From NCBI RefSeq assembly GCF_001677475.2, contig NZ_CP015229.1: a stretch of DNA of 64,000 nt. One strand, given 5' to 3'. The translations under genes and the position numbers were made by a program. Shown piece by piece: positions 1 through 32,529 of this stretch (position 1 is the stretch's first letter; every line of letters starts with the position of its first letter). Origin of the DNA: Escherichia coli (GTDB lineage Bacteria; Pseudomonadota; Gammaproteobacteria; Enterobacterales; Enterobacteriaceae). Under the pieces are notes generated by a model. That model did not search any database. It worked only from the letters and a program-made list of their open reading frames with translations, and was not told the DNA's origin.

Positions 1-1311
1 ATCGATATTCTGGTGGTGGATGATGACATTAGCCACTGCACTATTTTGCAGGCTTTACTGCGCGGCTGGGGCTATAACGTCGCGCTGGCGAACAGCGGGC
101 GACAGGCGCTGGAGCAGGTGCGGGAGCGAGTTTTTGATCTTGTGCTTTGCGATGTGCGAATGGCAGAGATGGATGGCATCGCCACGCTGAAAGAGATCAA
201 AACATTAAACCCCGCGATTCCGGTGCTGATTATGACCGCGTACTCCAGCGTCGAGACGGCGGTAGAGGCGTTGAAAACCGGGGCGCTGGATTATCTCATC
301 AAGCCGCTGGATTTCGATAACCTGCAGGCGACGCTGGAAAAGGCGCTCGCACATACGCACAGTGTTGACGCTGAAACGCCTGCGGTGTCTGCCAGCCAGT
401 TCGGTATGGTCGGTAAAAGCCCGGCGATGCAACACCTGCTCAGTGAAATCGCCCTCGTCGCGCCATCGGAAGCCACGGTGCTGATCCACGGCGATTCCGG
501 CACCGGTAAAGAGTTGGTCGCCAGGGCGATTCACGCCAGTAGCGCACGGAGTGAAAAACCACTGGTAACGCTCAACTGTGCGGCACTCAACGAATCCTTG
601 CTGGAATCTGAATTGTTCGGTCACGAAAAAGGGGCGTTTACTGGAGCTGATAAACGCCGGGAAGGGCGCTTTGTTGAGGCGGATGGCGGCACGTTGTTTC
701 TCGATGAAATTGGCGATATCTCGCCGATGATGCAGGTGCGTCTGCTACGTGCGATTCAGGAGCGCGAAGTTCAGCGTGTCGGTAGCAACCAGACTATTTC
801 GGTTGATGTCCGGCTGATTGCGGCGACTCATCGCGATCTTGCCGCAGAGGTGAATGCCGGGCGTTTTCGCCAGGATCTCTACTATCGCCTGAATGTGGTG
901 GCGATTGAAGTACCGTCGCTGCGGCAACGGCGGGAAGATATTCCTCTGCTGGCTGGTCATTTTCTTCAGCGCTTTGCCGAACGTAATCGCAAGGCGGTAA
1001 AAGGTTTTACGCCCCAGGCGATGGATCTGCTGATTCATTACGACTGGCCGGGCAATATTCGTGAGCTGGAAAATGCGGTGGAACGGGCAGTGGTGCTGCT
1101 GACCGGGGAATATATTTCCGAACGCGAGCTGCCGCTGGCGATTGCCAGTACGCCGATCCCGCTGGTACAAAGTCAGGATATTCAGCCGCTGGTGGAAGTC
1201 GAAAAAGAAGTGATTCTGGCGGCACTGGAGAAAACGGGCGGCAACAAAACCGAAGCCGCCCGTCAGTTAGGGATCACGCGCAAAACGCTATTGGCAAAAC
1301 TGTCGCGTTAG
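1..1311 (+). CDS. zraR: Sigma-54-dependent response regulator ZraR (HydG); 5' end truncated by the window edge
   Basis: ORF 13..1311 in frame from position 1; receiver domain, AAA+ sigma-54 activator motifs ([14 protein letters not shown]) and C-terminal HTH; synteny upstream of purD. Confidence 0.9.
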
Positions 1312-2597
1312 TTCTGCTCGCGTTCGATAGCGCGCCAGCCGATATCTTTCCGGCAGAAGCAGTCATCCCAGTGGATATCAGTCATTAAGTCATAGGCGCG
1401 TTTCTGCGCTTCTGCCACGGTATGACCCAGCGCGGTGACGCACAGTACGCGCCCGCCGCTGGTCACCACCTGCTCGTCATCTGCCAGTTTTGTGCCCGCG
1501 TGGAACACTTTGCCGCCTTCGACTTCTTCCAGGGGCAGGCCGTGGATCACATCGCCAGTGCGATAATCGCCCGGATATCCACCCGCAGCCATCACCACGC
1601 CGAGAGAAGCGCGTTCATCCCACTCGGACGTTTTCTCGTCCAGCTTGCCTTCACAGGCCGCCAGGCAAAGCTCAACCAGATCGGACTTCATGCGCAGCAT
1701 AATCGGCTGGGTTTCCGGATCGCCAAAGCGGCAGTTAAATTCAATAACCTTCGGATTGCCCTGTTTGTCGATCATCAGGCCCGCGTAGAGAAAACCAGTG
1801 TAGGTGTTGCCTTCTGCCGCCATGCCTTTCACGGTTGGCCAGATAATTCGTTCCATCGTGCGCTGATGAACCTCATCGGTCACTACTGGCGCAGGGGAGT
1901 AAGCGCCCATCCCGCCGGTGTTCGGCCCGGTATCTTTATCGCCTACGCGTTTGTGATCCTGGCTGGTGGCCATCGGCAGCACATGCTCACCGTCCACCAT
2001 CACGATAAAGCTCGCTTCTTCGCCGTCGAGGAACTCTTCGATAACGATGCGATGCCCCGCGTCGCCAAAAGCGTTGCCCGCCAGCATATCGTGAACAGCC
2101 GCTTCCGCTTCTTCCTGCGTCATCGCCACGATAACGCCTTTCCCGGCAGCCAGACCGTCAGCTTTAATGACGATTGGCGCGCCTTTCTCACGCAGATACG
2201 CCAGCGCAGGTTCTACCTCGGTGAAGTTCTGGTATTCCGCCGTAGGGATCTGATGGCGGGCCAGGAAATCCTTGGTAAACGCTTTCGAGCCTTCCAGCTG
2301 CGCGGCACCTGCGGTTGGGCCGAAGATTTTCAGCCCGGCGGCGCGGAAGGTATCCACCACGCCTTTCACCAGTGGCGCTTCCGGGCCGACGATGGTTAGA
2401 TCGATCTTTTCGTTTTGCGCGAAATCCAGCAGCGCCGGGATATCGGTTACGCCGATAGCGACGTTTTGCAGTGCAGGCTCCAGCGCAGTGCCTGCGTTAC
2501 CCGGAGCAACAAAAACAGTTTCAACCAGCGGCGACTGGGCCGCTTTCCAGGCCAGCGCGTGCTCGCGCCCGCCGTTACCAATCACTAATACTTTCAT
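1308..2597 (-). CDS. purD: Phosphoribosylamine-glycine ligase
   Basis: 429-aa ORF recognised as PurD (ATP-grasp); overlaps zraR stop; forms purHD operon. Confidence 0.95.
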   Translation of the reverse strand: MKVLVIGNGGREHALAWKAAQSPLVETVFVAPGNAGTALEPALQNVAIGVTDIPALLDFAQNEKIDLTIVGPEAPLVKGVVDTFRAAGLKIFGPTAGAAQLEGSKAFTKDFLARHQIPTAEYQNFTEVEPALAYLREKGAPIVIKADGLAAGKGVIVAMTQEEAEAAVHDMLAGNAFGDAGHRIVIEEFLDGEEASFIVMVDGEHVLPMATSQDHKRVGDKDTGPNTGGMGAYSPAPVVTDEVHQRTMERIIWPTVKGMAAEGNTYTGFLYAGLMIDKQGNPKVIEFNCRFGDPETQPIMLRMKSDLVELCLAACEGKLDEKTSEWDERASLGVVMAAGGYPGDYRTGDVIHGLPLEEVEGGKVFHAGTKLADDEQVVTSGGRVLCVTALGHTVAEAQKRAYDLMTDIHWDDCFCRKDIGWRAIEREQN

Positions 2598-2608
2598 CTA
2601 TTGCTCCA

Positions 2609-4198
2609 TTAATGGCGGAAGTGGCGCATGTCGGTGAAGAGCATTGCAATACCGTGTTCATCGGCGGCGGCAATCACTTCGTCATCACGGATAGAACCGC
2701 CAGGCTGGATTACGCAGGTCACGCCCGCAGCGGCGGCGGCATCAATACCGTCGCGGAACGGGAAGAACGCGTCAGAAGCCATCGAGGAACCTTTCACTTC
2801 CAGACCTTCATCGGCCGCTTTAATACCGGCGATTTTCGCGGAGTACACGCGGCTCATCTGGCCCGCGCCAATGCCGATGGTCATATTGTTTTTGGCATAG
2901 ACGATGGCGTTGGATTTCACGAACTTCGCCACCTTCCAGCAGAACAGCGCATCACGCAGTTCCTGTTCGCTCGGCTGGCGTTTGGTGACGACGCGCAGTT
3001 CTTCCGCACCGACCATGCCCAGATCGCGATCCTGAACCAGCAGACCGCCGTTCACGCGTTTGAAATCAAGACCCGGAACACGCTCGCCCCACTGACTGCA
3101 GGTCAGGACGCGTACGTTCTGTTTGGTGGCGGTGATTTTCAGGGCTTCTTCGCTGGCGGACGGCGCAATAATCACTTCAACAAACTGACGAGAAATGATG
3201 GCCTGCGCGGTTTCCGCATCCAGCTCGCGGTTAAAGGCGATAATGCCGCCGAATGCGGAGGTCGGGTCGGTTTTGTACGCGCGATCGTAAGCATCAAGAA
3301 TGGAATTGCCGATAGCCACGCCGCAAGGGTTGGCGTGCTTCACAATCACACATGCCGGCTCGGCGAACTCTTTCACGCACTCCAGCGCCGCATCGGTATC
3401 GGCGATGTTGTTATAAGAGAGGGCTTTACCCTGAACCTGGATTGCGGTAGCAACGGAGGCTTCTTTCACATTCTCTTCTATATAGAAGGCAGCCTGCTGG
3501 TGGCTGTTCTCGCCGTAACGCATATCCTGCTTCTTAATGAAGTTCAGGTTCAGCGTGCGTGGGAAGCGACCGGCGGCTTCTTTGCTTTCACCGTGATAGG
3601 CTGGGACCATGCTGCCGAAGTAGTTGGCAATCATGCTGTCGTAGGCGGCGGTATGTTCAAAGGCTTTGATAGCGAGATCGAAACGGGTTGCAAGCAGAAG
3701 CGATCCTTCGTTGGCATCCATCTCTTTAATGATGGCGTCGTAGTCGCTGCTCTTCACCACGATGGCGACATCTTTATGGTTCTTGGCGGCGGAGCGCACC
3801 ATCGTTGGGCCGCCGATATCGATGTTCTCAACCGCATCTTCCAGCGAGCAACCTTCACGGGCAACGGTCTGGGCGAACGGATACAGGTTAACAACCACCA
3901 TATCGATAGGCTGGATCTGATGTTCTTCCATAATGGCATCGTCCTGGCCGCGACGGCCCAGAATGCCACCATGTACTTTCGGATGCAGGGTCTTCACGCG
4001 TCCATCCATCATCTCCGGGAAACCGGTGTAATCGGAAACTTCGGTTACCGGCAGACCTTTTTCTGCTAACAGACGGGCAGTGCCCCCTGTAGACAGCAGC
4101 TCCACACCGCGTGCGGAAAGTGCCTGGGCGAATTCGACGATACCGGCTTTGTCAGAAACACTGAGCAGAGCGCGGCGGACTGGACGACGTTGTTGCAT
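2609..4198 (-). CDS. purH: Bifunctional AICAR transformylase / IMP cyclohydrolase
   Basis: 529-aa ORF recognised as PurH; immediately upstream of purD on the same strand. Confidence 0.95.
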
Positions 4199-4306
4199 GG
4201 TAAATCCCCTGGATTTGACTATTACAGAGAGCGTTAGCTGAATTTTTCGCGAAAAACTCAGCTAACGCCCCTAACGGGGCATCCTTATTTTTCGCCCGCA
4301 TTGTAA

Positions 4307-4322
4307 CGAAAACGTTTGCGCA
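4307..4322. promoter_or_regulatory. PurR operator (PUR box) in purHD promoter region
   Basis: Near-palindrome acgaaaacgtttgcg about 110 bp upstream of the purH start, matching the PurR box consensus ACGCAAACGTTTTCGT. Confidence 0.55.
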
Positions 4323-4469
4323 ACGCTCGCGAATTTTTCTCTTTCAATGGTGATCACAATTTTGACAGTGTTTACCGTGGGAAAAATACAGAAATTACAT
4401 TGATGATTGTGGATAACTCTGTGCGTAAAAAGGTATAAAGCGGGGTTTTGCTGGGGAATGCAGCAGTCA

Positions 4470-4635
4470 GTCATTTTTCTGCAATTTTTCTATTGCGGCC
4501 TGCGGAGAACTCCCTATAATGCGCCTCCATCGACACGGCGGATGTGAATCACTTCACACAAGCAGTCGGTTCGGTTGAAGAGAAAAATCCTGAAATTCAG
4601 GGTTGACTCTGAAAGAGGAAAGCGTAATATACGCC
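4470..4635 (+). promoter_or_regulatory. rrnE tandem promoters P1 and P2 with AT-rich upstream region
   Basis: P1: -35 ttgcgg (4493-4498), 16-nt spacer, -10 tataat (4515-4520). P2: -35 ttgact (4603-4608), -10 taatat (4625-4630). AT-rich UP/Fis-type region upstream. Confidence 0.75.
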
Positions 4636-4670
4636 ACCTCGCGACAGTGAGCTGAAAGCCGCGTCGCAAC

Positions 4671-4690
4671 TGCTCTTTAACAATTTATCA
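4671..4690 (+). promoter_or_regulatory. rrn leader boxA antitermination element
   Basis: tgctctttaacaatttatca matches the rrn boxA (TGCTCTTTAACAA) in the 16S leader. Confidence 0.8.
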
Positions 4691-4814
4691 GACAATCTGT
4701 GTGGGCACTCGAAGATACGGATTCTTAACGTCGCAAGACGAAAAATGAATACCAAGTCTCAAGAGTGAACACGTAATTCATTACGAAGTTTAATTCTTTG
4801 AGCATCAAACTTTT

Positions 4815-6356
<1,542 letters not shown>

Positions 6357-6710: not shown

Positions 6711-9612
<2,902 letters not shown>

Positions 9613-9709
9613 ACAACGCCGAAGCTGTTTTGGCGGATGAGAGAAGATTTTCAGCCTGATACAGATTAAATCGACAGGTCAGAACATGACGTGTTGATAA
9701 AACAGAATT

Positions 9710-9829
9710 TGCCTGGCGGCCGTAGCGCGGTGGTCCCACCTGACCCCATGCCGAACTCAGAAGTGAAACGCCGTAGCGCCGATGGTAGTGTGGGGTCTCC
9801 CCATGCGAGAGTAGGGAACTGCCAGGCAT
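9710..9829 (+). rRNA. rrfE: 5S ribosomal RNA (rrnE operon)
   Basis: tgcctggcggccgtagcgcggtgg...gggaactgccaggcat; 120 nt. Confidence 0.97.
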
Positions 9830-9831
9830 CA

Positions 9832-9878
9832 AATAAAACGAAAGGCTCAGTCGAAAGACTGGGCCTTTCGTTTTATCT
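9832..9878 (+). terminator. rrn terminator T1
   Basis: aaaacgaaaggctcagtcgaaagactgggcctttcgttttat hairpin followed by a T-run. Confidence 0.85.
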
Positions 9879-9975
9879 GTTGTTTGTCGGTGAACGCTCT
9901 CCTGAGTAGGACAAATCCGCCGGGAGCGGATTTGAACGTTGCGAAGCAACGGCCCGGAGGGTGCCAGGCATCAAA

Positions 9976-10013
9976 TTAAGCAGAAGGCTCAGTCGGAAGA
10001 CTGGGCCTTTTTG
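9976..10013 (+). terminator. rrn terminator T2-like hairpin
   Basis: agcagaaggctcagtcggaagactgggccttttt; second hairpin plus T-run after a short 5S-3'-like fragment. Confidence 0.7.
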
Positions 10014-10030
10014 CATTGGCGCAGAAAATA

Positions 10031-10056
10031 ATGCCGGATGCGACGCTGGCGCGTCT
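10031..10056. repeat. REP (repetitive extragenic palindromic) element
   Basis: atgccggatgcgacgctggcgcgtc matches the REP consensus core GCCGGATGCG. Confidence 0.6.
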
Positions 10057-10089
10057 GCTCCAGCTTACGCAGGCACGATAGGGGGCAGC

Positions 10090-10533
10090 TTATTCCCCCA
10101 CATATGCCAGATTCAGCAATGGATACGGTTTCCCCAAATCGTCCACCTCAGAGCGTCCCGTAACCTTAAAACCCACCTTCTTATAGAACCCAACCGCCTG
10201 CTCATTTTGCTCATTAACATTGGTTGTCAGTTCCGGGGCCATTGAGAGCGCATGCTCCACCAGCATCCGACCCACGCCGCAGCCGCACACATCAGGATCG
10301 ATAAACAGCGCATCCATATGCTGCCCACTTAACAACATAAACCCAACCGGCTGATCCCGTTCATTAACCGCGACCCACAACGGTGCTTCCGGCAGAAAGG
10401 AACGCACCAGCTCTTCCAGCTCGGCCCGATACTCCGCTGATAAAAAATCGTGGGTGGCATCGACAGATCGACACCAAATCGCAACGAGTTCTTCCCCTTC
10501 CTCATGCCGCGAGCGGCGAATACTAATAACCAT
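10090..10533 (-). CDS. yjaB: GNAT family N-acetyltransferase YjaB
   Basis: 147-aa ORF recognised as YjaB; acetyl-CoA-binding motif (Q/RxxGxG/A-like: CGCGVGRMLVEHAL). Confidence 0.9.
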   Translation of the reverse strand: MVISIRRSRHEEGEELVAIWCRSVDATHDFLSAEYRAELEELVRSFLPEAPLWVAVNERDQPVGFMLLSGQHMDALFIDPDVCGCGVGRMLVEHALSMAPELTTNVNEQNEQAVGFYKKVGFKVTGRSEVDDLGKPYPLLNLAYVGE

Positions 10534-10599
10534 TTTCTCTCCTTTTCGTCATTCTTATATTCTAACGTAGCCTTTTCCTTGAAACTTTCTCACCTTCAA

Positions 10600-10665
10600 C
10601 ATGCAGGCTCGACATTGGCAAATTTTCTGGTTATCTTCAGCTATCTGGATGTCTAAACGTATAAG
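10600..10665 (+). promoter_or_regulatory. metA promoter region with MetJ-box-like repeats
   Basis: agctatctggatgtctaaacgtataagcgtat upstream of metA resembles tandem 8-bp met boxes (AGACGTCT-like); position approximate. Confidence 0.45.
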
Positions 10666-10689
10666 CGTATGTAGTGAGGTAATCAGGTT

Positions 10690-11619
10690 ATGCCGATTCG
10701 TGTGCCGGACGAGCTACCCGCCGTCAATTTCTTGCGTGAAGAAAACGTCTTTGTGATGACAACTTCTCGTGCGTCTGGTCAGGAAATTCGTCCACTTAAG
10801 GTTCTGATCCTTAACCTGATGCCGAAGAAGATTGAAACTGAAAATCAGTTTCTGCGCCTGCTTTCAAACTCACCTTTGCAGGTCGATATTCAGCTGTTGC
10901 GCATCGATTCCCGTGAATCGCGCAACACGCCCGCAGAGCATCTGAACAACTTCTACTGTAACTTTGAAGATATTCAGGAACAGAACTTTGACGGTCTGAT
11001 TGTAACCGGTGCGCCGCTGGGCCTAGTGGAGTTTAATGATGTCGCTTACTGGCCGCAGATCAAACAGGTGCTGGAGTGGTCGAAAGATCACGTCACCTCG
11101 ACGCTGTTTGTCTGCTGGGCGGTACAGGCCGCGCTCAATATCCTCTACGGCATTCCTAAGCAAACCCGCACCGACAAACTCTCTGGCGTTTACGAGCATC
11201 ATATTCTCCATCCTCATGCGCTTCTGACGCGTGGTTTCGATGATTCATTCCTGGCACCACATTCGCGCTATGCTGACTTTCCGGCAGCGTTGATTCGTGA
11301 TTACACCGATCTGGAAATTCTGGCAGAGACGGAAGAAGGGGATGCATATCTGTTTGCCAGCAAAGATAAGCGCATTGCCTTTGTGACGGGCCATCCCGAA
11401 TATGATGCGCAAACGCTGGCGCAGGAATTTTTCCGCGATGTGGAAGCCGGACTAGACCCGGATGTACCGTATAACTATTTCCCGCACAATGATCCGCAAA
11501 ATACACCGCGAGCGAGCTGGCGTAGTCACGGTAATTTGCTATTTACCAACTGGCTCAACTATTACGTCTACCAGATCACGCCATACGATCTACGGCACAT
11601 GAATCCAACGCTGGATTAA
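10690..11619 (+). CDS. metA: Homoserine O-succinyltransferase
   Basis: 309-aa ORF beginning [15 protein letters not shown], recognised as MetA. Confidence 0.95.
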
Positions 11620-11664
11620 TCTTCTGTGATAGTCGATCGTTAAGCGATTCAGCACCTTACCTCA

Positions 11665-11687
11665 GGCACCTTAGGGTGCCTTTTTTA
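11665..11687 (+). terminator. Rho-independent terminator after metA
   Basis: aggcaccttagggtgcc hairpin followed by ttttttattt. Confidence 0.7.
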
Positions 11688-11887
11688 TTTCCGAAACGCA
11701 CCTCAGCAGGTGAATAAATTTTATTCATATTGTTATCAATAAGTTATCAAGTATTTTTAATTAAAATGGAAATTGTTTTTGATTTTGATTTTTAAATGAG
11801 TAGTCTTAGTTGTGCTGAACGAAAAGCGCACAACGATCCTTCGTTCACAATGGGGAAGTTTTCGGATCCATGACGAGGAGCTGCACG

Positions 11888-13489
11888 ATGACTGAACAGG
11901 CAACAACAACCGATGAACTGGCTTTCACAAGGCCGTATGGCGAGCAGGAGAAGCAAATTCTTACTGCCGAAGCGGTAGAATTTCTGACTGAGCTGGTGAC
12001 GCATTTTACGCCACAACGCAATAAACTTCTGGCAGCGCGCATTCAGCAGCAGCAGGATATCGATAACGGAACGTTGCCTGATTTTATTTCGGAAACAGCT
12101 TCCATTCGTGATGCTGACTGGAAAATTCGCGGGATTCCTGCGGACTTAGAAGATCGTCGGGTAGAGATTACCGGCCCGGTTGAGCGCAAGATGGTGATCA
12201 ACGCGCTCAACGCCAATGTGAAAGTCTTTATGGCCGATTTCGAAGATTCACTGGCACCAGACTGGAACAAAGTGATCGACGGGCAAATTAACCTGCGCGA
12301 TGCGGTTAACGGCACCATCAGCTATACCAATGAAGCAGGCAAAATTTATCAGCTCAAGCCCAATCCAGCGGTGTTGATTTGTCGGGTACGCGGTCTGCAC
12401 TTGCCGGAAAAACATGTCACCTGGCGTGGTGAGGCAATCCCCGGTAGCCTGTTTGATTTTGCGCTCTATTTCTTCCACAACTATCAGGCACTGTTGGCAA
12501 AGGGCAGTGGTCCCTATTTCTATCTGCCGAAAACCCAGTCCTGGCAGGAAGCGGCCTGGTGGAGCGAAGTCTTCAGCTATGCAGAAGATCGCTTTAATCT
12601 GGCGCGCGGTACCATCAAGGCGACGTTGCTGATTGAAACGCTGCCCGCCGTGTTCCAGATGGATGAAATCCTTCACGCGCTGCGTGACCATATTGTTGGT
12701 CTGAACTGCGGTCGTTGGGATTATATTTTCAGCTATATCAAAACGTTGAAAAACTATCCCGATCGCGTCCTGCCAGACAGACAAGCAGTGACGATGGATA
12801 AACCCTTCCTGAATGCTTACTCACGCCTGTTGATTAAAACCTGCCATAAACGCGGTGCTTTTGCGATGGGCGGCATGGCGGCGTTTATTCCGAGCAAAGA
12901 TGAAGAGCGCAATAACCAGGTGCTCAACAAAGTAAAAGCGGATAAATCGCTGGAAGCCAATAACGGTCACGATGGCACATGGATCGCTCACCCAGGCCTT
13001 GCGGACACGGCAATGGCGGTATTCAACGACATTCTCGGCTCCCGTAAAAATCAGCTTGAAGTGATGCGCGAACAAGACGCGCCGATTACTGCCGATCAGC
13101 TGCTGGCACCTTGTGATGGTGAACGCACCGAAGAAGGTATGCGCGCCAACATTCGCGTGGCTGTGCAGTACATCGAAGCATGGATCTCCGGCAACGGCTG
13201 CGTGCCGATTTATGGCCTGATGGAAGATGCGGCGACGGCTGAAATTTCCCGTACCTCAATCTGGCAGTGGATCCATCATCAAAAAACGTTGAGCAATGGC
13301 AAACCGGTGACCAAAGCCTTGTTCCGCCAGATGCTGGGTGAAGAGATGAAAGTCATTGCCAGCGAACTGGGCGAAGAACGTTTCTCCCAGGGGCGTTTTG
13401 ACGATGCCGCACGCTTGATGGAACAGATCACCACTTCCGATGAGTTAATTGATTTCCTGACCCTGCCAGGCTACCGCCTGTTAGCGTAA
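11888..13489 (+). CDS. aceB: Malate synthase A
   Basis: ORF 11870..13489; known protein begins at the internal ATG ([13 protein letters not shown]), giving 533 aa. Confidence 0.93.
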
Positions 13490-13518
13490 ACCACCACATA
13501 ACTATGGAGCATCTGCAC

Positions 13519-14823
13519 ATGAAAAACCGTACACAACAAATTGAAGAATTACAGAAAGAGTGGACTCAACCGCGTTGGGAAGGCATTACTCGCCCATACA
13601 GCGCGGAAGATGTGGTGAAATTACGCGGTTCAGTCAATCCTGAATGCACGCTGGCGCAACTGGGCGCGGCGAAAATGTGGCGTCTGCTGCATGGCGAGTC
13701 GAAAAAAGGCTACATCAACAGCCTCGGTGCACTGACTGGCGGTCAGGCGCTGCAACAGGCGAAAGCGGGTATTGAAGCAGTCTATCTGTCGGGATGGCAG
13801 GTAGCGGCGGACGCTAACCTGGCGGCCAGCATGTATCCGGATCAGTCGCTCTATCCGGCAAACTCGGTGCCAGCTGTGGTGGAGCGGATCAACAATACTT
13901 TCCGCCGTGCGGATCAGATCCAATGGTCCGCGGGCATTGAGCCGGGCGATCCGCGCTATGTGGATTACTTCCTGCCGATCGTTGCCGATGCGGAAGCCGG
14001 TTTTGGCGGTGTCCTGAATGCCTTTGAACTGATGAAAGCGATGATTGAAGCCGGTGCAGCGGCAGTTCACTTCGAAGATCAGCTGGCGTCAGTGAAGAAA
14101 TGCGGTCACATGGGCGGCAAAGTTTTGGTGCCAACTCAAGAAGCTATTCAGAAACTGGTCGCGGCGCGTCTGGCAGCTGACGTGACGGGCGTTCCAACCA
14201 TACTGGTTGCTCGTACCGATGCCGATGCAGCGGATCTGATTACCTCCGATTGCGACCCGTATGACAGCGAATTTATTACCGGCGAGCGTACCAGTGAAGG
14301 CTTCTTCCGTACTCATGCGGGCATTGAGCAAGCGATCAGCCGTGGCCTGGCGTATGCGCCATATGCTGACCTGGTCTGGTGTGAAACCTCCACGCCAGAC
14401 CTGGAACTGGCGCGTCGCTTTGCACAAGCTATCCACGCGAAATATCCGGGCAAACTGCTGGCTTATAACTGCTCGCCGTCGTTCAACTGGCAGAAAAACC
14501 TCGACGACAAAACTATTGCCAGCTTCCAGCAGCAGCTGTCGGATATGGGCTACAAGTTCCAGTTCATCACCCTGGCAGGCATCCACAGCATGTGGTTTAA
14601 CATGTTCGACCTGGCAAATGCCTATGCCCAGGGCGAAGGCATGAAGCATTACGTTGAGAAAGTGCAGCAGCCGGAATTTGCCGCTGCGAAAGATGGCTAT
14701 ACCTTCGTATCTCACCAGCAGGAAGTGGGTACAGGTTATTTCGATAAAGTGACGACCATTATTCAGGGCGGCACGTCTTCAGTCACCGCGCTGACCGGCT
14801 CCACCGAAGAATCGCAGTTCTAA
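13519..14823 (+). CDS. aceA: Isocitrate lyase
   Basis: ORF 13504..14823; start set at internal ATG ([12 protein letters not shown]), giving 434 aa; KKCGH active-site motif. Confidence 0.93.
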
Positions 14824-14862
14824 CAACCAACGCCCCTTTCCGTAAGGCGAGGGGCGAATTAA

Positions 14863-18763
<3,901 letters not shown>

Positions 18764-19079
18764 TTAAATATCTCATTGTTTATTGATGTCTTGAATTTTA
18801 ACTATCAGAACAGTGAAAAAATTTAATATGATTACAACTAAAGAAATATCATAAATCGCTCAATCTCATAATGCAGCCGTAAAAGTTTCGGTGGAATGAG
18901 ATCTTGCGATTTTGTTAATGATTAAGTGGTTTGATGTTTAAATATAATGCTGAGTTAATAAAAGTGTGTGAAGTGTATGACATTAAGTTATTTTGGCGTC
19001 AATGCGATTAACAGACACCCTTATTCTATTGCCACTCAGGTATGATGGGCAGAATATTGCCTCTGCCCGCCAGAAAAAG

Positions 19080-19904
19080 TCAGCGCATTCCACCGTACGC
19101 CAGCGTCACTTCCTTCGCCGCTTTAATCACCATCGCGCCAAACTCGGTCACGCGGTCATCGGTAATACGTGAAATCGGTCCGGAAATAGAAATTGCGGCA
19201 AACGGTTCACGGTGCTCATCGAAAATACACGCTGCAAGGCAACGTAGCCCCAGCGCATGTTCCTCATCGTCAAATGAATAACCCCGTTTGCGCGTTTGGG
19301 CGAGATCTTCTTTTAAATGCACAGGAGACACCAGCGTTGCGTGGGTATAGGCATGTAACCCTTTGCGGTGCAGCAGCTTCGTCACCTGTTCTTCGCTCAG
19401 TTGGGCTAAAAAGGCTTTACCCGCACCGGAAGCGTGCATAGGTAATTTACCGCCGATAGGCGCGGACATTCGCATCAGGTGGGTACACTGTACCTGGTCG
19501 ATAATAATCGCTTCATGATCGCTTTGATCAAGCACCGCCATATTGACCGTTTCGCCAGACTCTTCCATTAGATTGCGCAGGATAGGGTGAACAATTGCTA
19601 ACAAATTACGGCTCTGGAGAAAGCTGCTGCCGACCATAAAGGCATGTGCGCCGATTGCCCAGTGTCCCAGTTCGCCAACCTGACGCACGAAACCCTGCTG
19701 TTGCATCGTGGTTAGCAGGCGGTGGGTCGTGGAATTGGGTAACCCGGCTTGTTGCGCCAGTTCCGTGAGTGCCACACTGCCATTGGATTCGGCAATCCAC
19801 TCCAGTAATTTCAGGCCACGCGTTAAAGACTGAACCTGTCCAGTTGCTGGTGCGGTGGCAACGGCGGGTTTTCTGCCGCGTTTCGCGGGAATGGGTGCGA
19901 CCAT
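19080..19904 (-). CDS. iclR: Glyoxylate-shunt transcriptional repressor IclR
   Basis: ORF 19080..19943; known protein begins at internal ATG (MVAPIPAKRGRKPA), giving 274 aa. Confidence 0.93.
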   Translation of the reverse strand: MVAPIPAKRGRKPAVATAPATGQVQSLTRGLKLLEWIAESNGSVALTELAQQAGLPNSTTHRLLTTMQQQGFVRQVGELGHWAIGAHAFMVGSSFLQSRNLLAIVHPILRNLMEESGETVNMAVLDQSDHEAIIIDQVQCTHLMRMSAPIGGKLPMHASGAGKAFLAQLSEEQVTKLLHRKGLHAYTHATLVSPVHLKEDLAQTRKRGYSFDDEEHALGLRCLAACIFDEHREPFAAISISGPISRITDDRVTEFGAMVIKAAKEVTLAYGGMR

Positions 19905-20103
19905 GACAGTCTCCTTTTTCTGTATCGTGGAAATCATTTTCATTTTTATTGTTAGCTAATGCAATAGTTGCTGAACTGATCCGATGAGTTAATGTTGAAC
20001 AAATCTCATGTTGCGTGGTGGTCGCTTTTACCACAGATGCGTTTATGCCAGTATGGTTTGTTGAATTTTTATTAAATCTGGGTTGAGCGTGTCGGGAGCA
20101 AGT

Positions 20104-23787
<3,684 letters not shown>

Positions 23788-23818
23788 TTCACAAATCTGT
23801 CACTTTTCCTTACAACAA

Positions 23819-23850
23819 ACAGGGCGCTCAATGAGTGCCCTGTCTCTTTA
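23819..23850 (+). terminator. Rho-independent terminator after metH
   Basis: agggcgctcaatgagtgccct hairpin followed by gtctctttatt. Confidence 0.6.
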
Positions 23851-24006
23851 TTAATATGAAACACTTATACTGGAAACAGGCTGGAATAATCTTAGCCGGA
23901 AAAACGAATGTCAAAAGGCACAGTAAAGATGCCAGTCAGCGTGTTTCCGGTCCTTTGGTCATTCAATTGCTTCAGGAACATATAACGATAAGGAGAACCT
24001 GAACTC

Positions 24007-25638
24007 GTGTTAACGCTGCTTCACCTGCTTTCTGCCGTCGCCCTGCTGGTCTGGGGGACTCATATTGTTCGAACCGGCGTAATGCGCGTCTTCGGCGCGC
24101 GTTTGCGTACTGTCCTTAGCCGGAGCGTCGAAAAAAAGCCGCTCGCCTTTTGCGCGGGGATCGGCGTTACCGCACTGGTGCAGAGCAGTAATGCCACCAC
24201 CATGCTGGTGACCTCGTTCGTCGCTCAGGATCTGGTAGCCCTCGCACCGGCTCTGGTGATTGTGCTGGGTGCAGATGTCGGGACGGCGCTAATGGCGCGT
24301 ATTCTCACCTTCGACTTATCCTGGCTGTCACCATTACTTATTTTTATCGGCGTGATTTTTTTCCTCGGACGCAAACAGTCACGCGCCGGGCAACTGGGCC
24401 GCGTCGGTATTGGTCTTGGGCTGATTTTACTGGCGCTGGAGTTGATTGTGCAGGCCGTAACGCCGATCACTCAGGCAAACGGCGTTCAGGTGATCTTTGC
24501 CTCGCTGACTGGCGACATTTTGCTGGATGCGCTGATTGGTGCGATGTTCGCCATTATCAGCTACTCCAGCCTTGCTGCTGTACTGCTGACCGCGACTTTG
24601 ACCGCCGCAGGCATTATCTCTTTCCCAGTGGCGCTTTGTCTGGTGATTGGGGCAAACCTCGGTTCCGGCCTGCTGGCGATGCTCAACAACAGTGCCGCCA
24701 ATGCCGCAGCCCGCCGTGTCGCGCTGGGTAGTCTGCTGTTTAAGCTGGTGGGTAGCCTGATTATCCTGCCGTTTGTCCATTTGCTGGCAGAGACAATGGG
24801 GAAGTTGTCATTGCCAAAAGCGGAACTGGTGATCTATTTCCACGTCTTCTACAACCTTGTACGTTGCCTGGTCATGCTGCCATTTGTTGACCCGATGGCA
24901 CGGTTTTGCAAAACGATTATTCGCGATGAACCGGAACTGGATACCCAGCTACGGCCTAAACATCTGGATGTCAGCGCGCTGGATACGCCCACGCTTGCTC
25001 TGGCGAACGCCGCGCGCGAAACCCTGCGCATTGGCGACGCCATGGAACAGATGATGGAAGGGTTGAATAAAGTGATGCACGGCGAGCCACGGCAGGAGAA
25101 AGAGCTGCGTAAGCTGGCAGATGATATCAACGTTCTCTATACCGCCATTAAGCTGTATCTGGCGCGGATGCCAAAAGAAGAGCTGGCGGAGGAAGAGTCG
25201 CGCCGCTGGGCGGAGATCATCGAAATGTCGCTCAACCTTGAACAGGCCTCCGATATCGTCGAGCGCATGGGGAGTGAAATTGCCGACAAATCACTGGCAG
25301 CACGGCGGGCATTTTCGCTTGATGGGTTGAAGGAACTGGATGCGCTCTATGAGCAATTGCTCAGTAATTTAAAGCTGGCAATGTCGGTGTTCTTCTCTGG
25401 CGATGTCACCAGCGCTCGTCGTTTGCGCCGCAGCAAGCATCGCTTTCGCATTCTTAATCGCCGCTATTCCCACGCCCACGTCGATCGCCTGCATCAGCAA
25501 AACGTGCAAAGCATTGAAACCAGTTCGCTACATTTAGGCTTACTGGGAGATATGCAGCGTCTGAACTCGCTGTTTTGTTCGGTGGCTTACAGTGTGCTGG
25601 AACAGCCGGATGAAGATGAAGGACGGGACGAGTATTAA
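24007..25638 (+). CDS. yjbB: Na+/phosphate cotransporter family protein YjbB
   Basis: 543-aa ORF with GTG start; multi-pass membrane N-terminus plus PhoU-like C-terminal region. Confidence 0.88.
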   Translation: MLTLLHLLSAVALLVWGTHIVRTGVMRVFGARLRTVLSRSVEKKPLAFCAGIGVTALVQSSNATTMLVTSFVAQDLVALAPALVIVLGADVGTALMARILTFDLSWLSPLLIFIGVIFFLGRKQSRAGQLGRVGIGLGLILLALELIVQAVTPITQANGVQVIFASLTGDILLDALIGAMFAIISYSSLAAVLLTATLTAAGIISFPVALCLVIGANLGSGLLAMLNNSAANAAARRVALGSLLFKLVGSLIILPFVHLLAETMGKLSLPKAELVIYFHVFYNLVRCLVMLPFVDPMARFCKTIIRDEPELDTQLRPKHLDVSALDTPTLALANAARETLRIGDAMEQMMEGLNKVMHGEPRQEKELRKLADDINVLYTAIKLYLARMPKEELAEEESRRWAEIIEMSLNLEQASDIVERMGSEIADKSLAARRAFSLDGLKELDALYEQLLSNLKLAMSVFFSGDVTSARRLRRSKHRFRILNRRYSHAHVDRLHQQNVQSIETSSLHLGLLGDMQRLNSLFCSVAYSVLEQPDEDEGRDEY

Positions 25639-25651
25639 TATTGTGAATCCT

Positions 25652-25725
25652 GTAGGCCTGATAAGACGCGTCAAGCGTCGCATCAGGCACTATGAACAAG
25701 ATGCCGGATCATGCATCCGGCAATT
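25652..25725. repeat. REP element plus perfect hairpin between convergent yjbB and pepE
   Basis: taggcctgataagacgcgtcaagcgtcgcatcaggc (REP) and gccggatcatgcatccggc (palindrome). Confidence 0.7.
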
Positions 25726-25728
25726 CAC

Positions 25729-26418
25729 TTAAAAACGGTGACCTGCTTCCAGCGGCACCGCTTCTTCACCAGCTTTAAACACATAAGTGGTGTTCGGGCC
25801 ACCCAGCGTAGCGTGACCTTTACTCACCGTGATCCAGTTACCTTCCGGTAGACCAATAATTGTGAGTTCTGGCGCGACGACCAGCAGTTCGCGAATACGC
25901 TGCTCACGGGTTTCACCTTTATGGCCTTCCGGCAGCGCGTTGGTGAAGTGCGGGTTGATTTGCAGCGGGAACAGATTCAGCGCATCGAAACCTTGCGGAT
26001 CGACAATCGGCATATCGTTGGTGGTACGAATGGTTGGGCAAGCAAGGTTAGCGCCTGCGCTCCAGCCAACATACAGCGCGCCACGTTTAACCACGTCAGT
26101 AATTGGTGCCAGCAGCCCGCGCTCGCGGCACTGTTTCAGCAACTGGAAAGTATTACCGCCGCCGACAATCACGATCTCAGCATTTTCAATCGCGGCAACG
26201 GGATCGACAACGCTATGAATACCGGTGACAGAAACACCCAGCGGAGCGAGAACCGCAGCCGTTTTCGCTGTGTAATCATCCCAGGTCTGCGTTACGCCCG
26301 CGAAAGGAATAAATACCGCTGAACGGCGACCCTGCAACTGTTCAGCAATTAGCGGCAGTGCATGTTCCAGCCAGGCTTTACCCGGCAGCGTCGAGTTACT
26401 CAATAAAAGCAGTTCCAT
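25729..26418 (-). CDS. pepE: Peptidase E (alpha-aspartyl dipeptidase)
   Basis: 229-aa ORF recognised as PepE. Confidence 0.93.
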
Positions 26419-26540
26419 TACTTCTCCGGTTAGTAAGAAATCACGGAAGGAATGCTACCACTGCGAATTTAACCACTTACTGACATGGCTCACGATGTCA
26501 CGTATTGCACCGGGCGCTGAGACTGATGACAAACACAGCA

Positions 26541-26642
26541 TTGCCTGATGCGCTACGCTTACCAGGCCTACCAGATAACTGCAATATATTGAATTTTCGA
26601 GATTATGTATGCCGAATAAGGCTTCATTCCGCATCCGGCATA
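26541..26642. repeat. Pair of REP elements (BIME-like) in the pepE-sorE junction
   Basis: ttgcctgatgcgctacgcttaccaggcctac and atgccgaataaggcttcattccgcatccggcat, both REP-type palindromic units. Confidence 0.7.
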
Positions 26643-26799
26643 AACAATGTGCACTTTGCCACCAATTTGAGCGCCCCTTAAGGCGCTGATGTTTTTTATC
26701 CTTCTCGTGCAAATTGTGCTGCTTCAGCAATCAGCCGCACATCAGGTCGCGAAGTTGCCGCGGCGACCAGCCAGCGACATGCAGAGTTAAGTAGCGCGA

Positions 26800-28029
26800 T
26801 TAATCATGGGAAATTGCCTCTGCATGGGCGAGCAGGTATTGCTCCGCCTCACCGGACCAGATCCCCTGATGACGCGCCAGAATCGCCGCCAGTGCTTGAT
26901 CCTGAATCTGCGTGAGTGACGTCAGCGGCAGGTATTTCCCGGTATACACCAGCTTTTTGCCGCCGCCGACGGCAGGCAATTCAAGCGTGGTTTCGCCCGC
27001 GGCATTCAGCCCAAGAATATGTGTTACCACTTTTGCGGCCTGCACTTTTTTCTCTTCAATCAATTTGACCGCTGCGCGCATGTCGTCGGTATTGCCGCCT
27101 GACGTGCCCACGTAGTGGGTAAATGCATAATGCACATCGTAGAAATTAATTGGCGCGCTGAAATGTTTATCCTGCGGTCCGGCGAAGAAATTCAGGCAAC
27201 CATCCGTCGCCAGCAAGGAAGAGGCGAGAGTCACCAGTCCTTCATTAGGCACAAAGACGAAAATATCATCGAAGCCGTGACCGCCACTCAGCGCCATTAA
27301 CGTATCAAATGCTGCATCGGTGGCATTGAGATAATGAATCAGTGTTTGCGGTTCTGATGGATAGTGCTTCCGCGCATAACTCAATTTATCGTTGTCGGTA
27401 TCGGTAATGACGAGCAGCGACGGGTTAACGGGTCCATGTAGCGCATAATCAATCGCCAACAGTCCCATTGGTCCGGTGCCGCCGAGGATCAGCGTGCGCC
27501 CTTGCGGGCGAATCCCCATCGTGTGGTTATAACTACCTTCCTGAAGATGATAGTTGGCGTTGAACGCGCCAATCACGCAGGAAAGCGGTTCAACCAGCGA
27601 GCCTTCAAAATAGGTTTCGCCGTCGTATGCCAGCAGGCAATCTTGTTCCATGACCTCGTTGGGAATAACTACATGCGTGGCTTCGCCGCCTACCCACGGG
27701 AAGGAGTAGCCGGGGCAGTCCGGGCGGTCGGGGAGTTGCAGGTTGGCCTGAATCACATAACGCTGACCCGGCTGGAATTTGTGCTGCCACTTTTTACCCA
27801 CGGCCAGAATATCGCCGCAAAACTCGTGGCCGATGATGATTGGGTTGGTCGCCACATCGTCGGGTACTTTTTTATGGTTTTCACCCAGATTGGCCTCTTT
27901 CCAGGAAGAGAGGCACAGGCTGTCAGTGACCACCGTCGCGAGGATTTCATCCTCCTGCATTTCAGGAAGATCAAAGGTTTCCAGGCGTAAATCACGTTTA
28001 CCATAAAGACGCAGAGCTGTTGTTTTCAT
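26800..28029 (-). CDS. sorE: L-sorbose-1-phosphate reductase (zinc-dependent alcohol dehydrogenase family)
   Basis: ORF 26800..28041; start set at second ATG (MKTTALRLYG), which has a GAGGTG Shine-Dalgarno; last gene of sor operon. Confidence 0.85.
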   Translation of the reverse strand: MKTTALRLYGKRDLRLETFDLPEMQEDEILATVVTDSLCLSSWKEANLGENHKKVPDDVATNPIIIGHEFCGDILAVGKKWQHKFQPGQRYVIQANLQLPDRPDCPGYSFPWVGGEATHVVIPNEVMEQDCLLAYDGETYFEGSLVEPLSCVIGAFNANYHLQEGSYNHTMGIRPQGRTLILGGTGPMGLLAIDYALHGPVNPSLLVITDTDNDKLSYARKHYPSEPQTLIHYLNATDAAFDTLMALSGGHGFDDIFVFVPNEGLVTLASSLLATDGCLNFFAGPQDKHFSAPINFYDVHYAFTHYVGTSGGNTDDMRAAVKLIEEKKVQAAKVVTHILGLNAAGETTLELPAVGGGKKLVYTGKYLPLTSLTQIQDQALAAILARHQGIWSGEAEQYLLAHAEAISHD

Positions 28030-28080
28030 AAACCACCTCATGTTGAGCTATGGCCCCGGCAGTCGTGCCGGGGCGAAGAA

Positions 28081-28905
28081 TCAGGACAGGAAGCCCAGCG
28101 CATTGCCGATAATCCCTAAGCCAAACAGGGCGAAAATCAGCCATACCGGGTTAATTTTTTTGTTAAGCAGACGAACCATCAGTAGCGTCAGACCGAGCGC
28201 CAGCAAACCAGGGCAAAGTTGGTCGAGAATGTTCTGCACGGTCATGGTGACGGTGGAGCCATCGGCGGCATGCGTTTGTGAAACCACCAACGGTACGTTG
28301 ATTGACGTCCATTTGGTGACCAGCACGCCCATCACAAACAGTCCGAGAATCGACGCGCCTTCGGTGAGTTTTTGCAGCACATTCCCGCCCATATCGCTGA
28401 CGATATTCACCCCTTTGCGAAAGCCGAGCTGTAGGCCATACCACTTCATCGCCAGACGCACCGCATTGAAAATAAAGAAAAACAAAAGCGGGCCGAGGAT
28501 GTTGCCCGAAAGTGCCAGAGATGCGCCGAGCGCAGCGGTAATCGGGCGCAGCGTTCCCCAGACCAGTGGATCGCCAACTCCTGCCAATGGTCCCATCAGA
28601 CCGACTTTGATGCCGTTAATGGTACCGTCATCAATTTCCGCGCCGTTGGCCCGCGCCTCTTCCATGGCGGCAGTGACGCCGATGACCGGGCCACATACGG
28701 CTGGCGTGGTATTGAAGAACACCAGGTGTCGCCTGAGCGCCGCAACCTGATCCTCTTTTAATGGGTAAAGTCGCTTGATGGCGGGGATCATGTCGTAGCA
28801 AAAAACCAGCCCGTGAATACGTTCAAAGTTAAAGGACGCCTGTTGCAGGTTGGAGCGCAGAAACATGCTCACCAGATCGCTGCGTGTAATTTTTCTCTGT
28901 TCCAT
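28081..28905 (-). CDS. sorM: PTS sorbose-specific EIID component (mannose family)
   Basis: ORF track begins at a TTG (28935); first ATG at 28905 (MEQRKITRSDL) has a GGAG Shine-Dalgarno and lies 10 nt after the sorA stop; ManZ-like membrane protein. Confidence 0.85.
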   Translation of the reverse strand: MEQRKITRSDLVSMFLRSNLQQASFNFERIHGLVFCYDMIPAIKRLYPLKEDQVAALRRHLVFFNTTPAVCGPVIGVTAAMEEARANGAEIDDGTINGIKVGLMGPLAGVGDPLVWGTLRPITAALGASLALSGNILGPLLFFFIFNAVRLAMKWYGLQLGFRKGVNIVSDMGGNVLQKLTEGASILGLFVMGVLVTKWTSINVPLVVSQTHAADGSTVTMTVQNILDQLCPGLLALGLTLLMVRLLNKKINPVWLIFALFGLGIIGNALGFLS

Positions 28906-28915
28906 GATGGCTCCG

Positions 28916-29713
28916 TTAATCGTCAAGTTGGTCAAGGGCGGTGGAGGCGGTGGCCTGGAGTTGAGGTTCAGCTTTACGCCACTGTGGATTTAGCTGGATG
29001 TAGACCAGGGCCATGATCACGCCGACGCCACCGAACGCCAGCAGACTGAGATCGAGGTAGCCACCTGCGAGGAAACCGAGGAAAAAGAAAGGCATCAAAT
29101 ATTTCACGCCCATCATACGTAGCACCATGGCGTAACCGACCACCACGATAAAACCGCCAGCAATTTGCAGACCTCGGGTCACAAATTCGGGAATGGCGTT
29201 TAACATATTGCTGACCATATCGGCGCTGACGAACAGCGAGACAATCAGTGCCGGAATGGCGACGCGCAGCGCCTGCACGCCAAGCGCGGAGACATGCAGA
29301 ATATCGAGAGTGCGAAACCGCGCCTCTTCTGCTGCTTTATCCGCCGCGTGCTGGAACACTACGGTGATGGTACGGGCAAACACAGTCAGCACCTGGCCTG
29401 CCGCAGCCACAGGCAACGCGATGGCGATTCCGGTGGCGATGCTTTGCTGACCAACGATAACCAGAATGGCGGAGATTATGCTGGCGAGTGCAGAATCTGG
29501 AGATTGCGCCGCGCCGACGTTCATCCAGCCGAGAGCTATCAATTCCAGCGTACCGCCGAGTATTATTCCGGTTTTTAAATCACCGAGAATTAAACCAATC
29601 ACCGTACAGGCAATTAACGGGCGATGAGTCTGAAATTCATCCAGCACGCTGCCCATTCCGGCAATACAGGAAAAAAGAAATATAGCAATAATTTGTAGGG
29701 TACTTATTTCCAT
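28916..29713 (-). CDS. sorA: PTS sorbose-specific EIIC component (mannose family)
   Basis: 265-aa polytopic membrane ORF, ManY-like. Confidence 0.88.
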   Translation of the reverse strand: MEISTLQIIAIFLFSCIAGMGSVLDEFQTHRPLIACTVIGLILGDLKTGIILGGTLELIALGWMNVGAAQSPDSALASIISAILVIVGQQSIATGIAIALPVAAAGQVLTVFARTITVVFQHAADKAAEEARFRTLDILHVSALGVQALRVAIPALIVSLFVSADMVSNMLNAIPEFVTRGLQIAGGFIVVVGYAMVLRMMGVKYLMPFFFLGFLAGGYLDLSLLAFGGVGVIMALVYIQLNPQWRKAEPQLQATASTALDQLDD

Positions 29714-29778
29714 GATTTGTCACCTTTTAAGTGTCGTCATCCCTGCCTGTTAAAGCATATGTACACAGGCGCTATTAT

Positions 29779-30680: not shown

Positions 30681-30689
30681 AAAGCCTCC

Positions 30690-31496: not shown

Positions 31497-31565
31497 AACA
31501 GACTCCTGATTTTAGATAATAGGGACCCGCCGTAATTTTTATTACGGTAAACATCGGGAAGATTT

Positions 31566-32516: not shown

Positions 32517-32529
32517 CGCCTCCTGGTTC

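What the first reader, a model, noticed from the sequence alone, without database searches (positions are those of the whole stretch)
9830..10095. yjaA is absent between the rrnE terminators and yjaB
Only about 260 bp (terminators T1 and T2, one REP, a short hairpin) separate the 5S rRNA from the yjaB stop codon, and there is no ORF. In K-12 the yjaA gene occupies this position. yjaA is one of the Clermont phylotyping markers, while the other marker in this window, arpA, is present. The strain is therefore yjaA-negative and arpA-positive, which excludes arpA-negative lineages; chuA and TspE4.C2 lie outside the window.
Basis: partly seen in the sequence, partly recalled or inferred. Interest (0 to 1): 0.3.

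Follow-up and report, generated by a model that had tools for sequence, protein, structure and literature searches.

The report
yjaA-less rrnE terminator junction
The stretch after the 5S rRNA gene holds only the rRNA operon's two terminators and a REP repeat running straight into yjaB, so the typing-marker gene yjaA is absent, as it is in about half of all sequenced E. coli.

Summary
The window carries the rrnE locus: purD-purH, then 16S, tRNA-Glu, 23S and 5S, then yjaB, metA and aceBAK-arpA. Only 260-262 bp separate the 5S gene from the yjaB stop codon. That gap holds terminator T1, a spacer with two hairpins, a repeat of the 5S 3' end, terminator T2, one REP and a weak hairpin over the yjaB stop.

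K-12 has yjaA (384 bp) at this position. The window has no yjaA-like DNA or protein, and the Clermont yjaA primers find no site. The arpA primers match exactly and give the expected 400-bp product, and arpA is an intact 728-codon ORF.

One refinement: this is not a clean deletion of yjaA. The whole interval, from the 5S end to the last codon of yjaB, is an alternative and non-homologous haplotype. It is built from the same T1-T2-REP module found after rrnA and rrnB.

Among 5,426 complete E. coli genomes:
- 2,594 carry yjaA.
- About 2,793 lack it. Of these, 827 have the tandem-terminator form and the rest a single terminator.

This is ordinary, long-known strain polymorphism, so interest is low.

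The parts
9710..9829 (+). 5S rRNA gene of the rrnE operon (rrfE)
   Evidence: Rfam RF00001 matches 9712-9827 at 92.8 bits. The 120-nt mature ends were read from the sequence and from the K-12 rrfE alignment.
9833..9880 (+). Terminator T1: a 20-bp stem-loop followed by a T run
   Evidence: Terminator scan and fold. Within a 271-nt alignment of 5S, T1 and spacer that is 98.9% identical to K-12 rrnB (3 mismatches).
9913..9951 (+). Spacer between T1 and T2, with two small hairpins (9913-9933 and 9937-9951)
   Evidence: Fold. Homologous to the T1-T2 spacers of K-12 rrnA and rrnB.
9961..9964 (.). Site of a 26-bp deletion that removed the GGCGGGCAGGACGCCCGCC hairpin. The deleted piece is flanked by a TG/TG microhomology.
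   Evidence: The hairpin is present at rrnE in O103:H2 and EC50, at rrnA and rrnB in K-12, and in S. enterica diarizonae. The exact junction is absent from metagenome contigs. No complete E. coli genome covering the whole query matches the junction better than 91.3%.
9962..9976 (+). Repeat of the 5S 3' end (TGCCAGGCATCAAAT, identical to 9820-9834) that heads the T2 unit
   Evidence: Read directly from the sequence. In single-terminator strains the real 5S end joins T2 at this point.
9982..10012 (+). Terminator T2: 9 to 13-bp stem, GGAA loop, TTTTT tail
   Evidence: Fold and alignment to T2 of rrnA, rrnB, rrnG and rrnE in other strains. The simple terminator scan missed it. My reading, not tested, is that extending the stem uses up part of the T run.
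10033..10068 (.). One REP element (GCCGGATGCGACGCTGGCGCGTCT...)
   Evidence: Aligns to the REP downstream of K-12 rrnA and rrnG and of rrnE in yjaA-less strains and other genera.
10081..10099 (.). Weak hairpin (GGGGG, 9 nt, CCCCC) spanning the yjaB stop codon at 10090-10092
   Evidence: Sequence and fold.
10090..10533 (-). yjaB, a GNAT acetyltransferase convergent with rrnE. This allele ends ...YVGE, as in the yjaA-less strains compared here.
   Evidence: ORF; NCBIfam PRK10514 at 275 bits and Pfam GNAT domains. C-terminal residue E here, against A in K-12 and V in IHE3034.
16577..18763 (-). arpA, intact. The Clermont arpA amplicon spans 16198-16597.
   Evidence: 728-codon ORF. Pfam ShET2 N-terminal region plus ankyrin repeats. 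708 of 728 residues identical to K-12 ArpA, and exact primer sites 400 bp apart.

Best explanation
The interval is the 3' termination zone of the rrnE ribosomal RNA operon, in its yjaA-less form with two terminators. Transcription leaving the 5S gene meets T1 and then T2. T2 is a backup headed by a duplicated 5S 3' end. A REP element follows, and then the 3' end of the convergent gene yjaB.

yjaA is not deleted out of a K-12-like sequence. Everything between the 5S end (CATCAAAT) and the last codon of yjaB belongs to a different haplotype. It is built from the same T1-T2-REP module that follows rrnA and rrnB.

E. coli carries several alternative haplotypes at this site:
- the yjaA cassette;
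- a single terminator plus REP;
- tandem terminators plus REP;
- rarely, a decayed yjaA remnant.

I infer that these haplotypes are exchanged by homologous recombination or gene conversion anchored in the conserved 5S gene and in yjaB. The strain is therefore truly yjaA-negative and arpA-positive. The anatomy, the absence of yjaA and the population frequencies are shown. Terminator function and the recombination mechanism are inferred.
For: - K-12 has yjaA at this junction. Its gap is 520 bp, against 262 bp here.
- In the three-way alignment, homology stops at the 5S end and resumes in the last codons of yjaB. Neither K-12's own terminator nor its 62-bp yjaA-yjaB spacer is retained. Genomes without yjaA begin to match K-12 only 5 nt inside yjaB.
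- The window has no yjaA DNA, no YjaA-like protein and no yjaA primer site.
- The interval aligns to the distal module of K-12 rrnB (5S, T1 and spacer, 98.9%) and of rrnA (through the REP).
- Population counts in 5,426 complete genomes: yjaA in 2,594; a yjaA-less junction in 2,793; of those, the tandem form in 827.
- Strains such as PCN033 and M114 have the single-terminator form, with a 114-bp gap.
- Other genera mostly have 5S, a single terminator, REP and yjaB. S. enterica diarizonae has the tandem form.
- Signs of exchange: the E. whittamii yjaA cassette matches K-12 at 514 of 516 nt and its yjaB at 98.6%, while the adjacent metA is 94.1% identical.
- K-12 rrnG is followed by a terminator, a REP and a remnant of about 60 nt of a yjaB 3' end.
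Against: - The direction of change is unresolved. yjaA sits at the same site in E. whittamii, in B2 strain IHE3034, and as 65-66% identical homologues in Phytobacter diazotrophicus and Kosakonia sp. S29.
- One E. coli, HH45, keeps a decayed yjaA remnant. The yjaA-less state in this lineage could therefore descend from a loss.
- Terminator activity was not measured, and the simple scan found T1 only.
- The rest of the genome was not available, so a second-site yjaA is not strictly excluded.
Confidence: 0.9

Rival explanations
1. A simple, recent deletion removed yjaA from a K-12-like ancestor and left the flanks intact.
For: - yjaA is present at this site in about 48% of complete E. coli genomes, in E. 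whittamii and in two more distant genera.
- HH45 shows that yjaA can decay in place.
Against: - No K-12 flank survives: neither the K-12 rrnE terminator (AAAAACCCCGGTCC...) nor the 62-bp yjaA-yjaB spacer.
- The interval is instead homologous throughout to the rrnA/rrnB T1-T2-REP module, and to the arrangement in Citrobacter, Klebsiella and Salmonella.
- yjaB itself is only 93.9% identical to K-12, against 98.7% for metA and the yjaB-metA spacer next to it.
Confidence: 0.05
2. Assembly artefact: the rrn repeat, which extends through T1 and the spacer at rrnA and rrnB, was mis-joined. On this reading the junction, or its 26-bp deletion, is not real.
For: - 5S, T1 and the spacer are nearly identical between operons: 98.9% to K-12 rrnB.
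- The 26-bp-deleted junction is found nowhere else.
Against: - The same overall architecture occurs at rrnE in 827 complete genomes and in S. enterica diarizonae.
- The REP-to-yjaB part is unique sequence, and it is continuous with T2 as in single-terminator strains.
- Even if the T1 unit were spurious, yjaA would still be absent.
Confidence: 0.04
3. yjaA is present but has moved elsewhere in the genome, so the strain would still type yjaA-positive.
For: None in the window. It cannot be excluded from 64 kb. A few genomes have extra yjaA matches: 2,601 places in 2,594 genomes, one on a plasmid.
Against: 2,592 of 2,594 yjaA-positive genomes have yjaA contiguous with yjaB. The yjaA-positive count (2,594) and the yjaA-less-junction count (2,793) sum to 5,387 of 5,426, which leaves little room for overlap.
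Confidence: 0.01

Closest known systems
E. coli K-12 MG1655 rrfE-yjaA-yjaB locus (b4010-b4012)
   Same: Same chromosomal position and flanks: purH, rrnE with tRNA-Glu, yjaB, metA, aceBAK and arpA.
   Different: K-12 has its own single terminator, then yjaA (127 codons) and a 62-bp spacer. The window has T1-T2-REP instead and no yjaA. The last YjaB residue is E here and A in K-12.
rrnB T1-T2 tandem terminators and the rrnA distal region of K-12
   Same: T1, the spacer hairpins, the duplicated 5S 3' end and the position of T2 correspond. 5S, T1 and the spacer are 98.9% identical to rrnB, and rrnA also shares the REP.
   Different: The window lacks the 26-bp GGCGGGCAGGACGCCCGCC hairpin segment. 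Its T2 stem (GGCTCAGTC/GACTGGGCC) resembles T1 rather than the rrnB T2 stem (GGCCATCC/GGATGGCC).
yjaA-less rrnE junctions of other E. coli (O103:H2 FWSEC0007, EC50, PCN033, M114, O145 strains)
   Same: No yjaA, the same REP, and yjaB ending ...VGE. O103:H2 and EC50 share the tandem T1-T2 form.
   Different: PCN033, M114 and the O145 strains have only one terminator (114-bp gap in PCN033 and M114). No complete genome covering the whole junction matches it better than 91.3%.
Clermont phylotyping markers (yjaA and arpA PCR targets)
   Same: The arpA target amplifies in silico at exactly 400 bp. The yjaA target (211 bp in K-12) is absent.
   Different: Nothing differs from the published scheme. 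The group-E-specific arpA primer pair has a 3'-terminal mismatch on the reverse primer, so a group-E call is predicted negative.

Membership tests
rrnE locus of E. coli | An rRNA operon with tRNA-Glu in the 16S-23S spacer, flanked by purH-purD upstream and yjaB-metA-aceB downstream | tested here: met
   Rfam rRNA hits, tRNA-Glu, purD, purH, metA and aceB by NCBIfam, yjaB, and K-12 gene order.
yjaA-negative genotype (Clermont marker) | No yjaA gene and no yjaA.1b/yjaA.2b primer sites at the rrfE-yjaB junction | tested here: met
   blastn and tblastn give chance hits only. There are no primer sites at up to 4 mismatches, whereas K-12 gives the 211-bp product. Primers were checked in PMC10716328.
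yjaA-negative genotype (Clermont marker) | No yjaA anywhere in the genome | not testable with these tools
   Only a 64-kb window is available. At population level, yjaA is adjacent to yjaB in 2,592 of 2,594 positive genomes.
arpA-positive genotype (Clermont marker) | AceK.f and ArpA1.r sites giving a 400-bp product, and an intact arpA | tested here: met
   Exact matches at 16198-16217 and 16578-16597, a 400-bp span. 728-codon ORF with ShET2-N and ankyrin domains.
Tandem rrn terminators (rrnB T1-T2 type) | Two successive stem-loops, each with a T run, downstream of 5S, the second headed by a repeat of the 5S 3' end | tested here: met
   T1 by scan, both hairpins in the fold, alignment to K-12 rrnA and rrnB.
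Tandem rrn terminators (rrnB T1-T2 type) | Actual termination of rrn transcripts at T1 and T2 | not testable with these tools
   This needs transcript 3'-end mapping.
REP (repetitive extragenic palindrome) | An imperfect palindrome of about 35 nt of the GCCGGATGCG...CGTCTTATCC type in an intergenic position | tested here: met
   10033-10068 aligns with REP copies after K-12 rrnA and rrnG and in other genera. The match to the REP consensus itself rests on my own knowledge of that consensus.

The most novel reading that the evidence does not exclude
The rrfE-yjaB junction may be a small recombination hot spot. Whole alternative haplotypes of about 0.3-1 kb (the yjaA cassette with its linked yjaB allele, against terminator-REP modules copied from other rrn operons) would be swapped using the 5S gene and yjaB as homology anchors, sometimes across species.

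The evidence for swapping is that the K-12 and E. whittamii cassettes are 99.6% identical beside a metA gene only 94.1% identical. If this reading is right, yjaA presence or absence is not a strictly vertical marker. The window, which is about 2% diverged from every complete E. coli genome, would carry its own private variant with the 26-bp deletion.
Probability: 0.4. Interest if true: 0.2.

Novelty: already known. Interest (0 to 1): 0.08.

Why it matters
It matters little beyond bookkeeping. It gives two of the four Clermont quadruplex results for this strain: arpA positive and yjaA negative. That rules out the arpA-negative groups and leaves A, B1, D or E.

The side observation has minor value for people who design or interpret in-silico phylotyping. 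The 'missing' marker is really one of several interchangeable haplotypes at the end of an rRNA operon, and the yjaA cassette appears to have crossed a species boundary. This does not change any current understanding.

Tried and rejected
- I looked for any trace of yjaA in the window with blastn (word size 7), tblastn and primer matching at up to 4 mismatches. Only chance hits appeared.
- I searched JGI metagenome contigs for the exact 26-bp-deleted junction. There were 0 hits.
- I searched the paper library for a description of the yjaA/yjaB junction structure. Only incidental mentions turned up.
- I considered that the window might be error-ridden, because its 23S region looked only 98-99% identical to other strains. 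Site-by-site comparison showed that almost all differences are known polymorphisms between rrn copies, plus a variant 23S-5S spacer. Only 2 substitutions in 23S are unique to the window.
- I considered that the window might belong to another Escherichia species, because YjaB scored 99% to E. whittamii. At the DNA level E. whittamii is 93.6% identical and E. coli strains are about 98%, so that reading was rejected.
- I tried to find the source strain through the exact YjaB protein. That sequence occurs in thousands of assemblies, so it is uninformative.
- I tested for a strict link between yjaA and the yjaB allele, and rejected it. EC50 lacks yjaA but has a K-12-like yjaB (98.9%), and B2 strain IHE3034 has yjaA with a different yjaB allele.

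Full report
**Observation**

The window carries the E. coli rrnE locus. Rfam finds 16S at 4815-6356, 23S at 6711-9612 and 5S at 9712-9827. The spacer tRNA is tRNA-Glu. purD and purH lie upstream, and metA and aceB downstream.

yjaB is the 147-codon ORF 10090-10533 on the minus strand. It matches NCBIfam PRK10514 at 275 bits and has GNAT domains. By sequence, the mature 5S ends at 9829 and the yjaB stop codon is at 10090-10092.

The gap contains:
- T1, a 20-bp stem at 9833-9876 with a T run;
- two small spacer hairpins at 9913-9933 and 9937-9951;
- a 15-nt repeat of the 5S 3' end at 9962-9976;
- T2 at 9982-10012;
- a REP at 10033-10068;
- a weak hairpin over the yjaB stop at 10081-10099.

The interval folds much better than shuffled sequence (z = -7.0). 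The only ORFs in it are of 30-47 codons, plus one 94-codon ORF that is mostly antisense to yjaB.

**Is yjaA really missing, and does K-12 have it here?**

K-12 MG1655 has yjaA (b4011, 384 bp) between rrfE and yjaB, with a 520-bp gap. Searching K-12 yjaA and YjaA against the whole window gives only chance-level hits (E >= 0.24).

I ran in-silico PCR with the Clermont 2013 primers. Their sequences and product sizes were confirmed in PMC10716328 and in the EzClermont paper PMC7656184.
- The yjaA primers have no site in the window at up to 4 mismatches. K-12 gives the 211-bp product.
- AceK.f and ArpA1.r match exactly and give 400 bp (16198-16597).
- The chuA and TspE4.C2 primers have no site in the window.

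arpA is an intact 728-codon ORF with the ShET2 N-terminal domain and ankyrin repeats. It shares 708 of 728 residues with K-12 ArpA.

**What is actually there**

The alignment with K-12 shows that this is not a clean deletion. Homology ends at the 5S 3' end (CATCAAAT) and resumes only in the last codons of yjaB. YjaB ends ...VGE-TAA here and ...VGA-TAG in K-12. Genomes without yjaA start matching K-12 just 5 nt inside yjaB. K-12's own terminator hairpin and its 62-bp yjaA-yjaB spacer have no counterpart in the window.

Instead, the window's interval is homologous to the distal modules of other rrn operons:
- 5S, T1 and the spacer are 98.9% identical to K-12 rrnB.
- The alignment to K-12 rrnA continues through T2 and the REP.

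Compared with those copies, and with the rrnE junctions of O103:H2 and EC50, the window lacks a 26-bp segment holding the hairpin GGCGGGCAGGACGCCCGCC. The missing piece is flanked by a TG/TG microhomology. That exact junction was not found in metagenome contigs. No complete E. coli genome covering the whole junction matches it better than 91.3%.

**Population picture**

Among 5,426 complete E. coli genomes:
- 2,594 carry yjaA, and 2,592 of them have it contiguous with yjaB.
- 2,793 have a yjaA-less junction.
- 827 of those have the tandem T1-T2-REP form seen here.
- By subtraction, about 1,970 have a single terminator plus REP. In PCN033 and M114 that gap is 114 bp, and the O145-type strains are also of this kind.

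One genome, HH45, keeps a 5'-truncated, frameshifted yjaA remnant that is 89.7% identical to K-12 yjaA.

**Other species**

A genome-collection scan with YjaB and inspection of the regions beyond yjaB gave the following:
- Citrobacter, Klebsiella, Pseudocitrobacter, S. enterica arizonae and Escherichia sp. E1V33 have 5S, a single terminator, one or more REPs, and yjaB. Phytobacter massiliensis shows terminator-yjaB with no REP or yjaA before its contig ends.
- S. enterica diarizonae has the tandem form.
- yjaA occupies the same site in E. whittamii.
- Homologues 65-66% identical to YjaA occupy the same site in Phytobacter diazotrophicus and Kosakonia sp. S29.

The direction of change in the window's lineage therefore stays open.

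Two observations point to exchange of whole haplotypes rather than simple decay.
1. The E. whittamii cassette matches K-12 at 514 of 516 nt and its yjaB at 98.6%, while the neighbouring metA is only 94.1% identical.
2. K-12 rrnG is followed by a terminator, a REP and a remnant of about 60 nt of a yjaB 3' end. This is a fossil of the yjaA-less junction inside a yjaA-positive genome.

yjaB itself is unusually polymorphic, with 4-6% divergence between E. coli strains against 1-2% for metA. Its alleles are not strictly linked to yjaA status.

**Mechanism**

What is shown: the anatomy, the homology to known rrn terminator modules, the absence of yjaA, and the population frequencies.

What is inferred:
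- T1 and T2 end the heavily transcribed rrnE operon and protect the convergent yjaB from antisense read-through.
- The REP and T2 may also serve the 3' end of yjaB mRNA.
- The alternative haplotypes are exchanged by gene conversion or homologous recombination anchored in 5S and yjaB.

**Comparison with what is known, and verdict**

yjaA presence or absence has been a routine E. coli phylotyping marker for many years, and the T1-T2 terminators are textbook elements. Both statements rest on my own knowledge. The finding is correct but ordinary. The haplotype-replacement detail and the sharing of the cassette across species are minor additions.

The window as a whole is at most about 98.2% identical to the best of 5,426 complete E. 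coli genomes in three separate segments. Its lineage is therefore not closely represented, but that does not bear on the finding.

Noticed in passing
window 1-4700, 10090-30000 and 36000-60000: Each of these three segments is at most 98.0-98.2% identical to the best of 5,426 complete E. coli genomes. The best hits are mostly phylogroup D/E-type strains (042, PCN033, O145:H28). DNA identity is about 93.6% to E. whittamii and about 93.4% to E. albertii. The strain's lineage seems not to be closely represented among complete genomes.
   Followed up: partly
L044 (K-12 rrnG distal region), aligned to window 9962-10149: Downstream of K-12 rrfG lie a single terminator, a REP and a remnant of about 60 nt of a yjaB 3' end. 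This is a fossil copy of the yjaA-less rrnE junction kept in a yjaA-positive genome.
   Followed up: partly
L005 (E. whittamii Sa2BVA5) 4439-5035: The yjaA cassette is 514/516 nt identical to K-12 and yjaB is 98.6% identical, while the adjacent metA is 94.1% identical. This suggests a haplotype of about 1 kb was shared across species by recombination.
   Followed up: partly
L049 (E. coli HH45) 1452-1763: This is the only one of 5,426 genomes with a decayed yjaA: 5'-truncated, frameshifted and 89.7% identical to K-12. It sits behind a single terminator and beside a B1-like yjaB allele.
   Followed up: partly
L026 (Phytobacter diazotrophicus) and L027 (Kosakonia sp. S29), downstream of yjaB: YjaA homologues (66% and 65% amino-acid identity) sit at the same position, convergent with yjaB. 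No YjaA homologue was found in the Citrobacter, Klebsiella and Salmonella loci scanned, and Phytobacter massiliensis shows a terminator directly after yjaB. The distribution is patchy.
   Followed up: no
window 18078-18101 and 18355-18378: The group-E-specific arpA primer sites are mosaic. The forward site has the E-type 3' base (C, against T in K-12 and PCN033). The reverse site has the non-E 3' base (A, as in K-12), so the group-E PCR is predicted negative.
   Followed up: partly
window 9673-9699: The 23S-5S spacer is a variant (atcgacaggtcagaacatgacgtgttgat) not seen in the five other rrnE copies compared. The 23S gene itself has only 2 substitutions unique to the window, at 7015 and 8255.
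   Followed up: no
window 26800-33733: Strains M114 and PCN033 match this part of the window contiguously. There they are annotated with sorE (L-sorbose 1-phosphate reductase), mannose/fructose/sorbose-family PTS subunits and an SDR oxidoreductase. From memory, K-12 lacks this cluster; I did not check.
   Followed up: no
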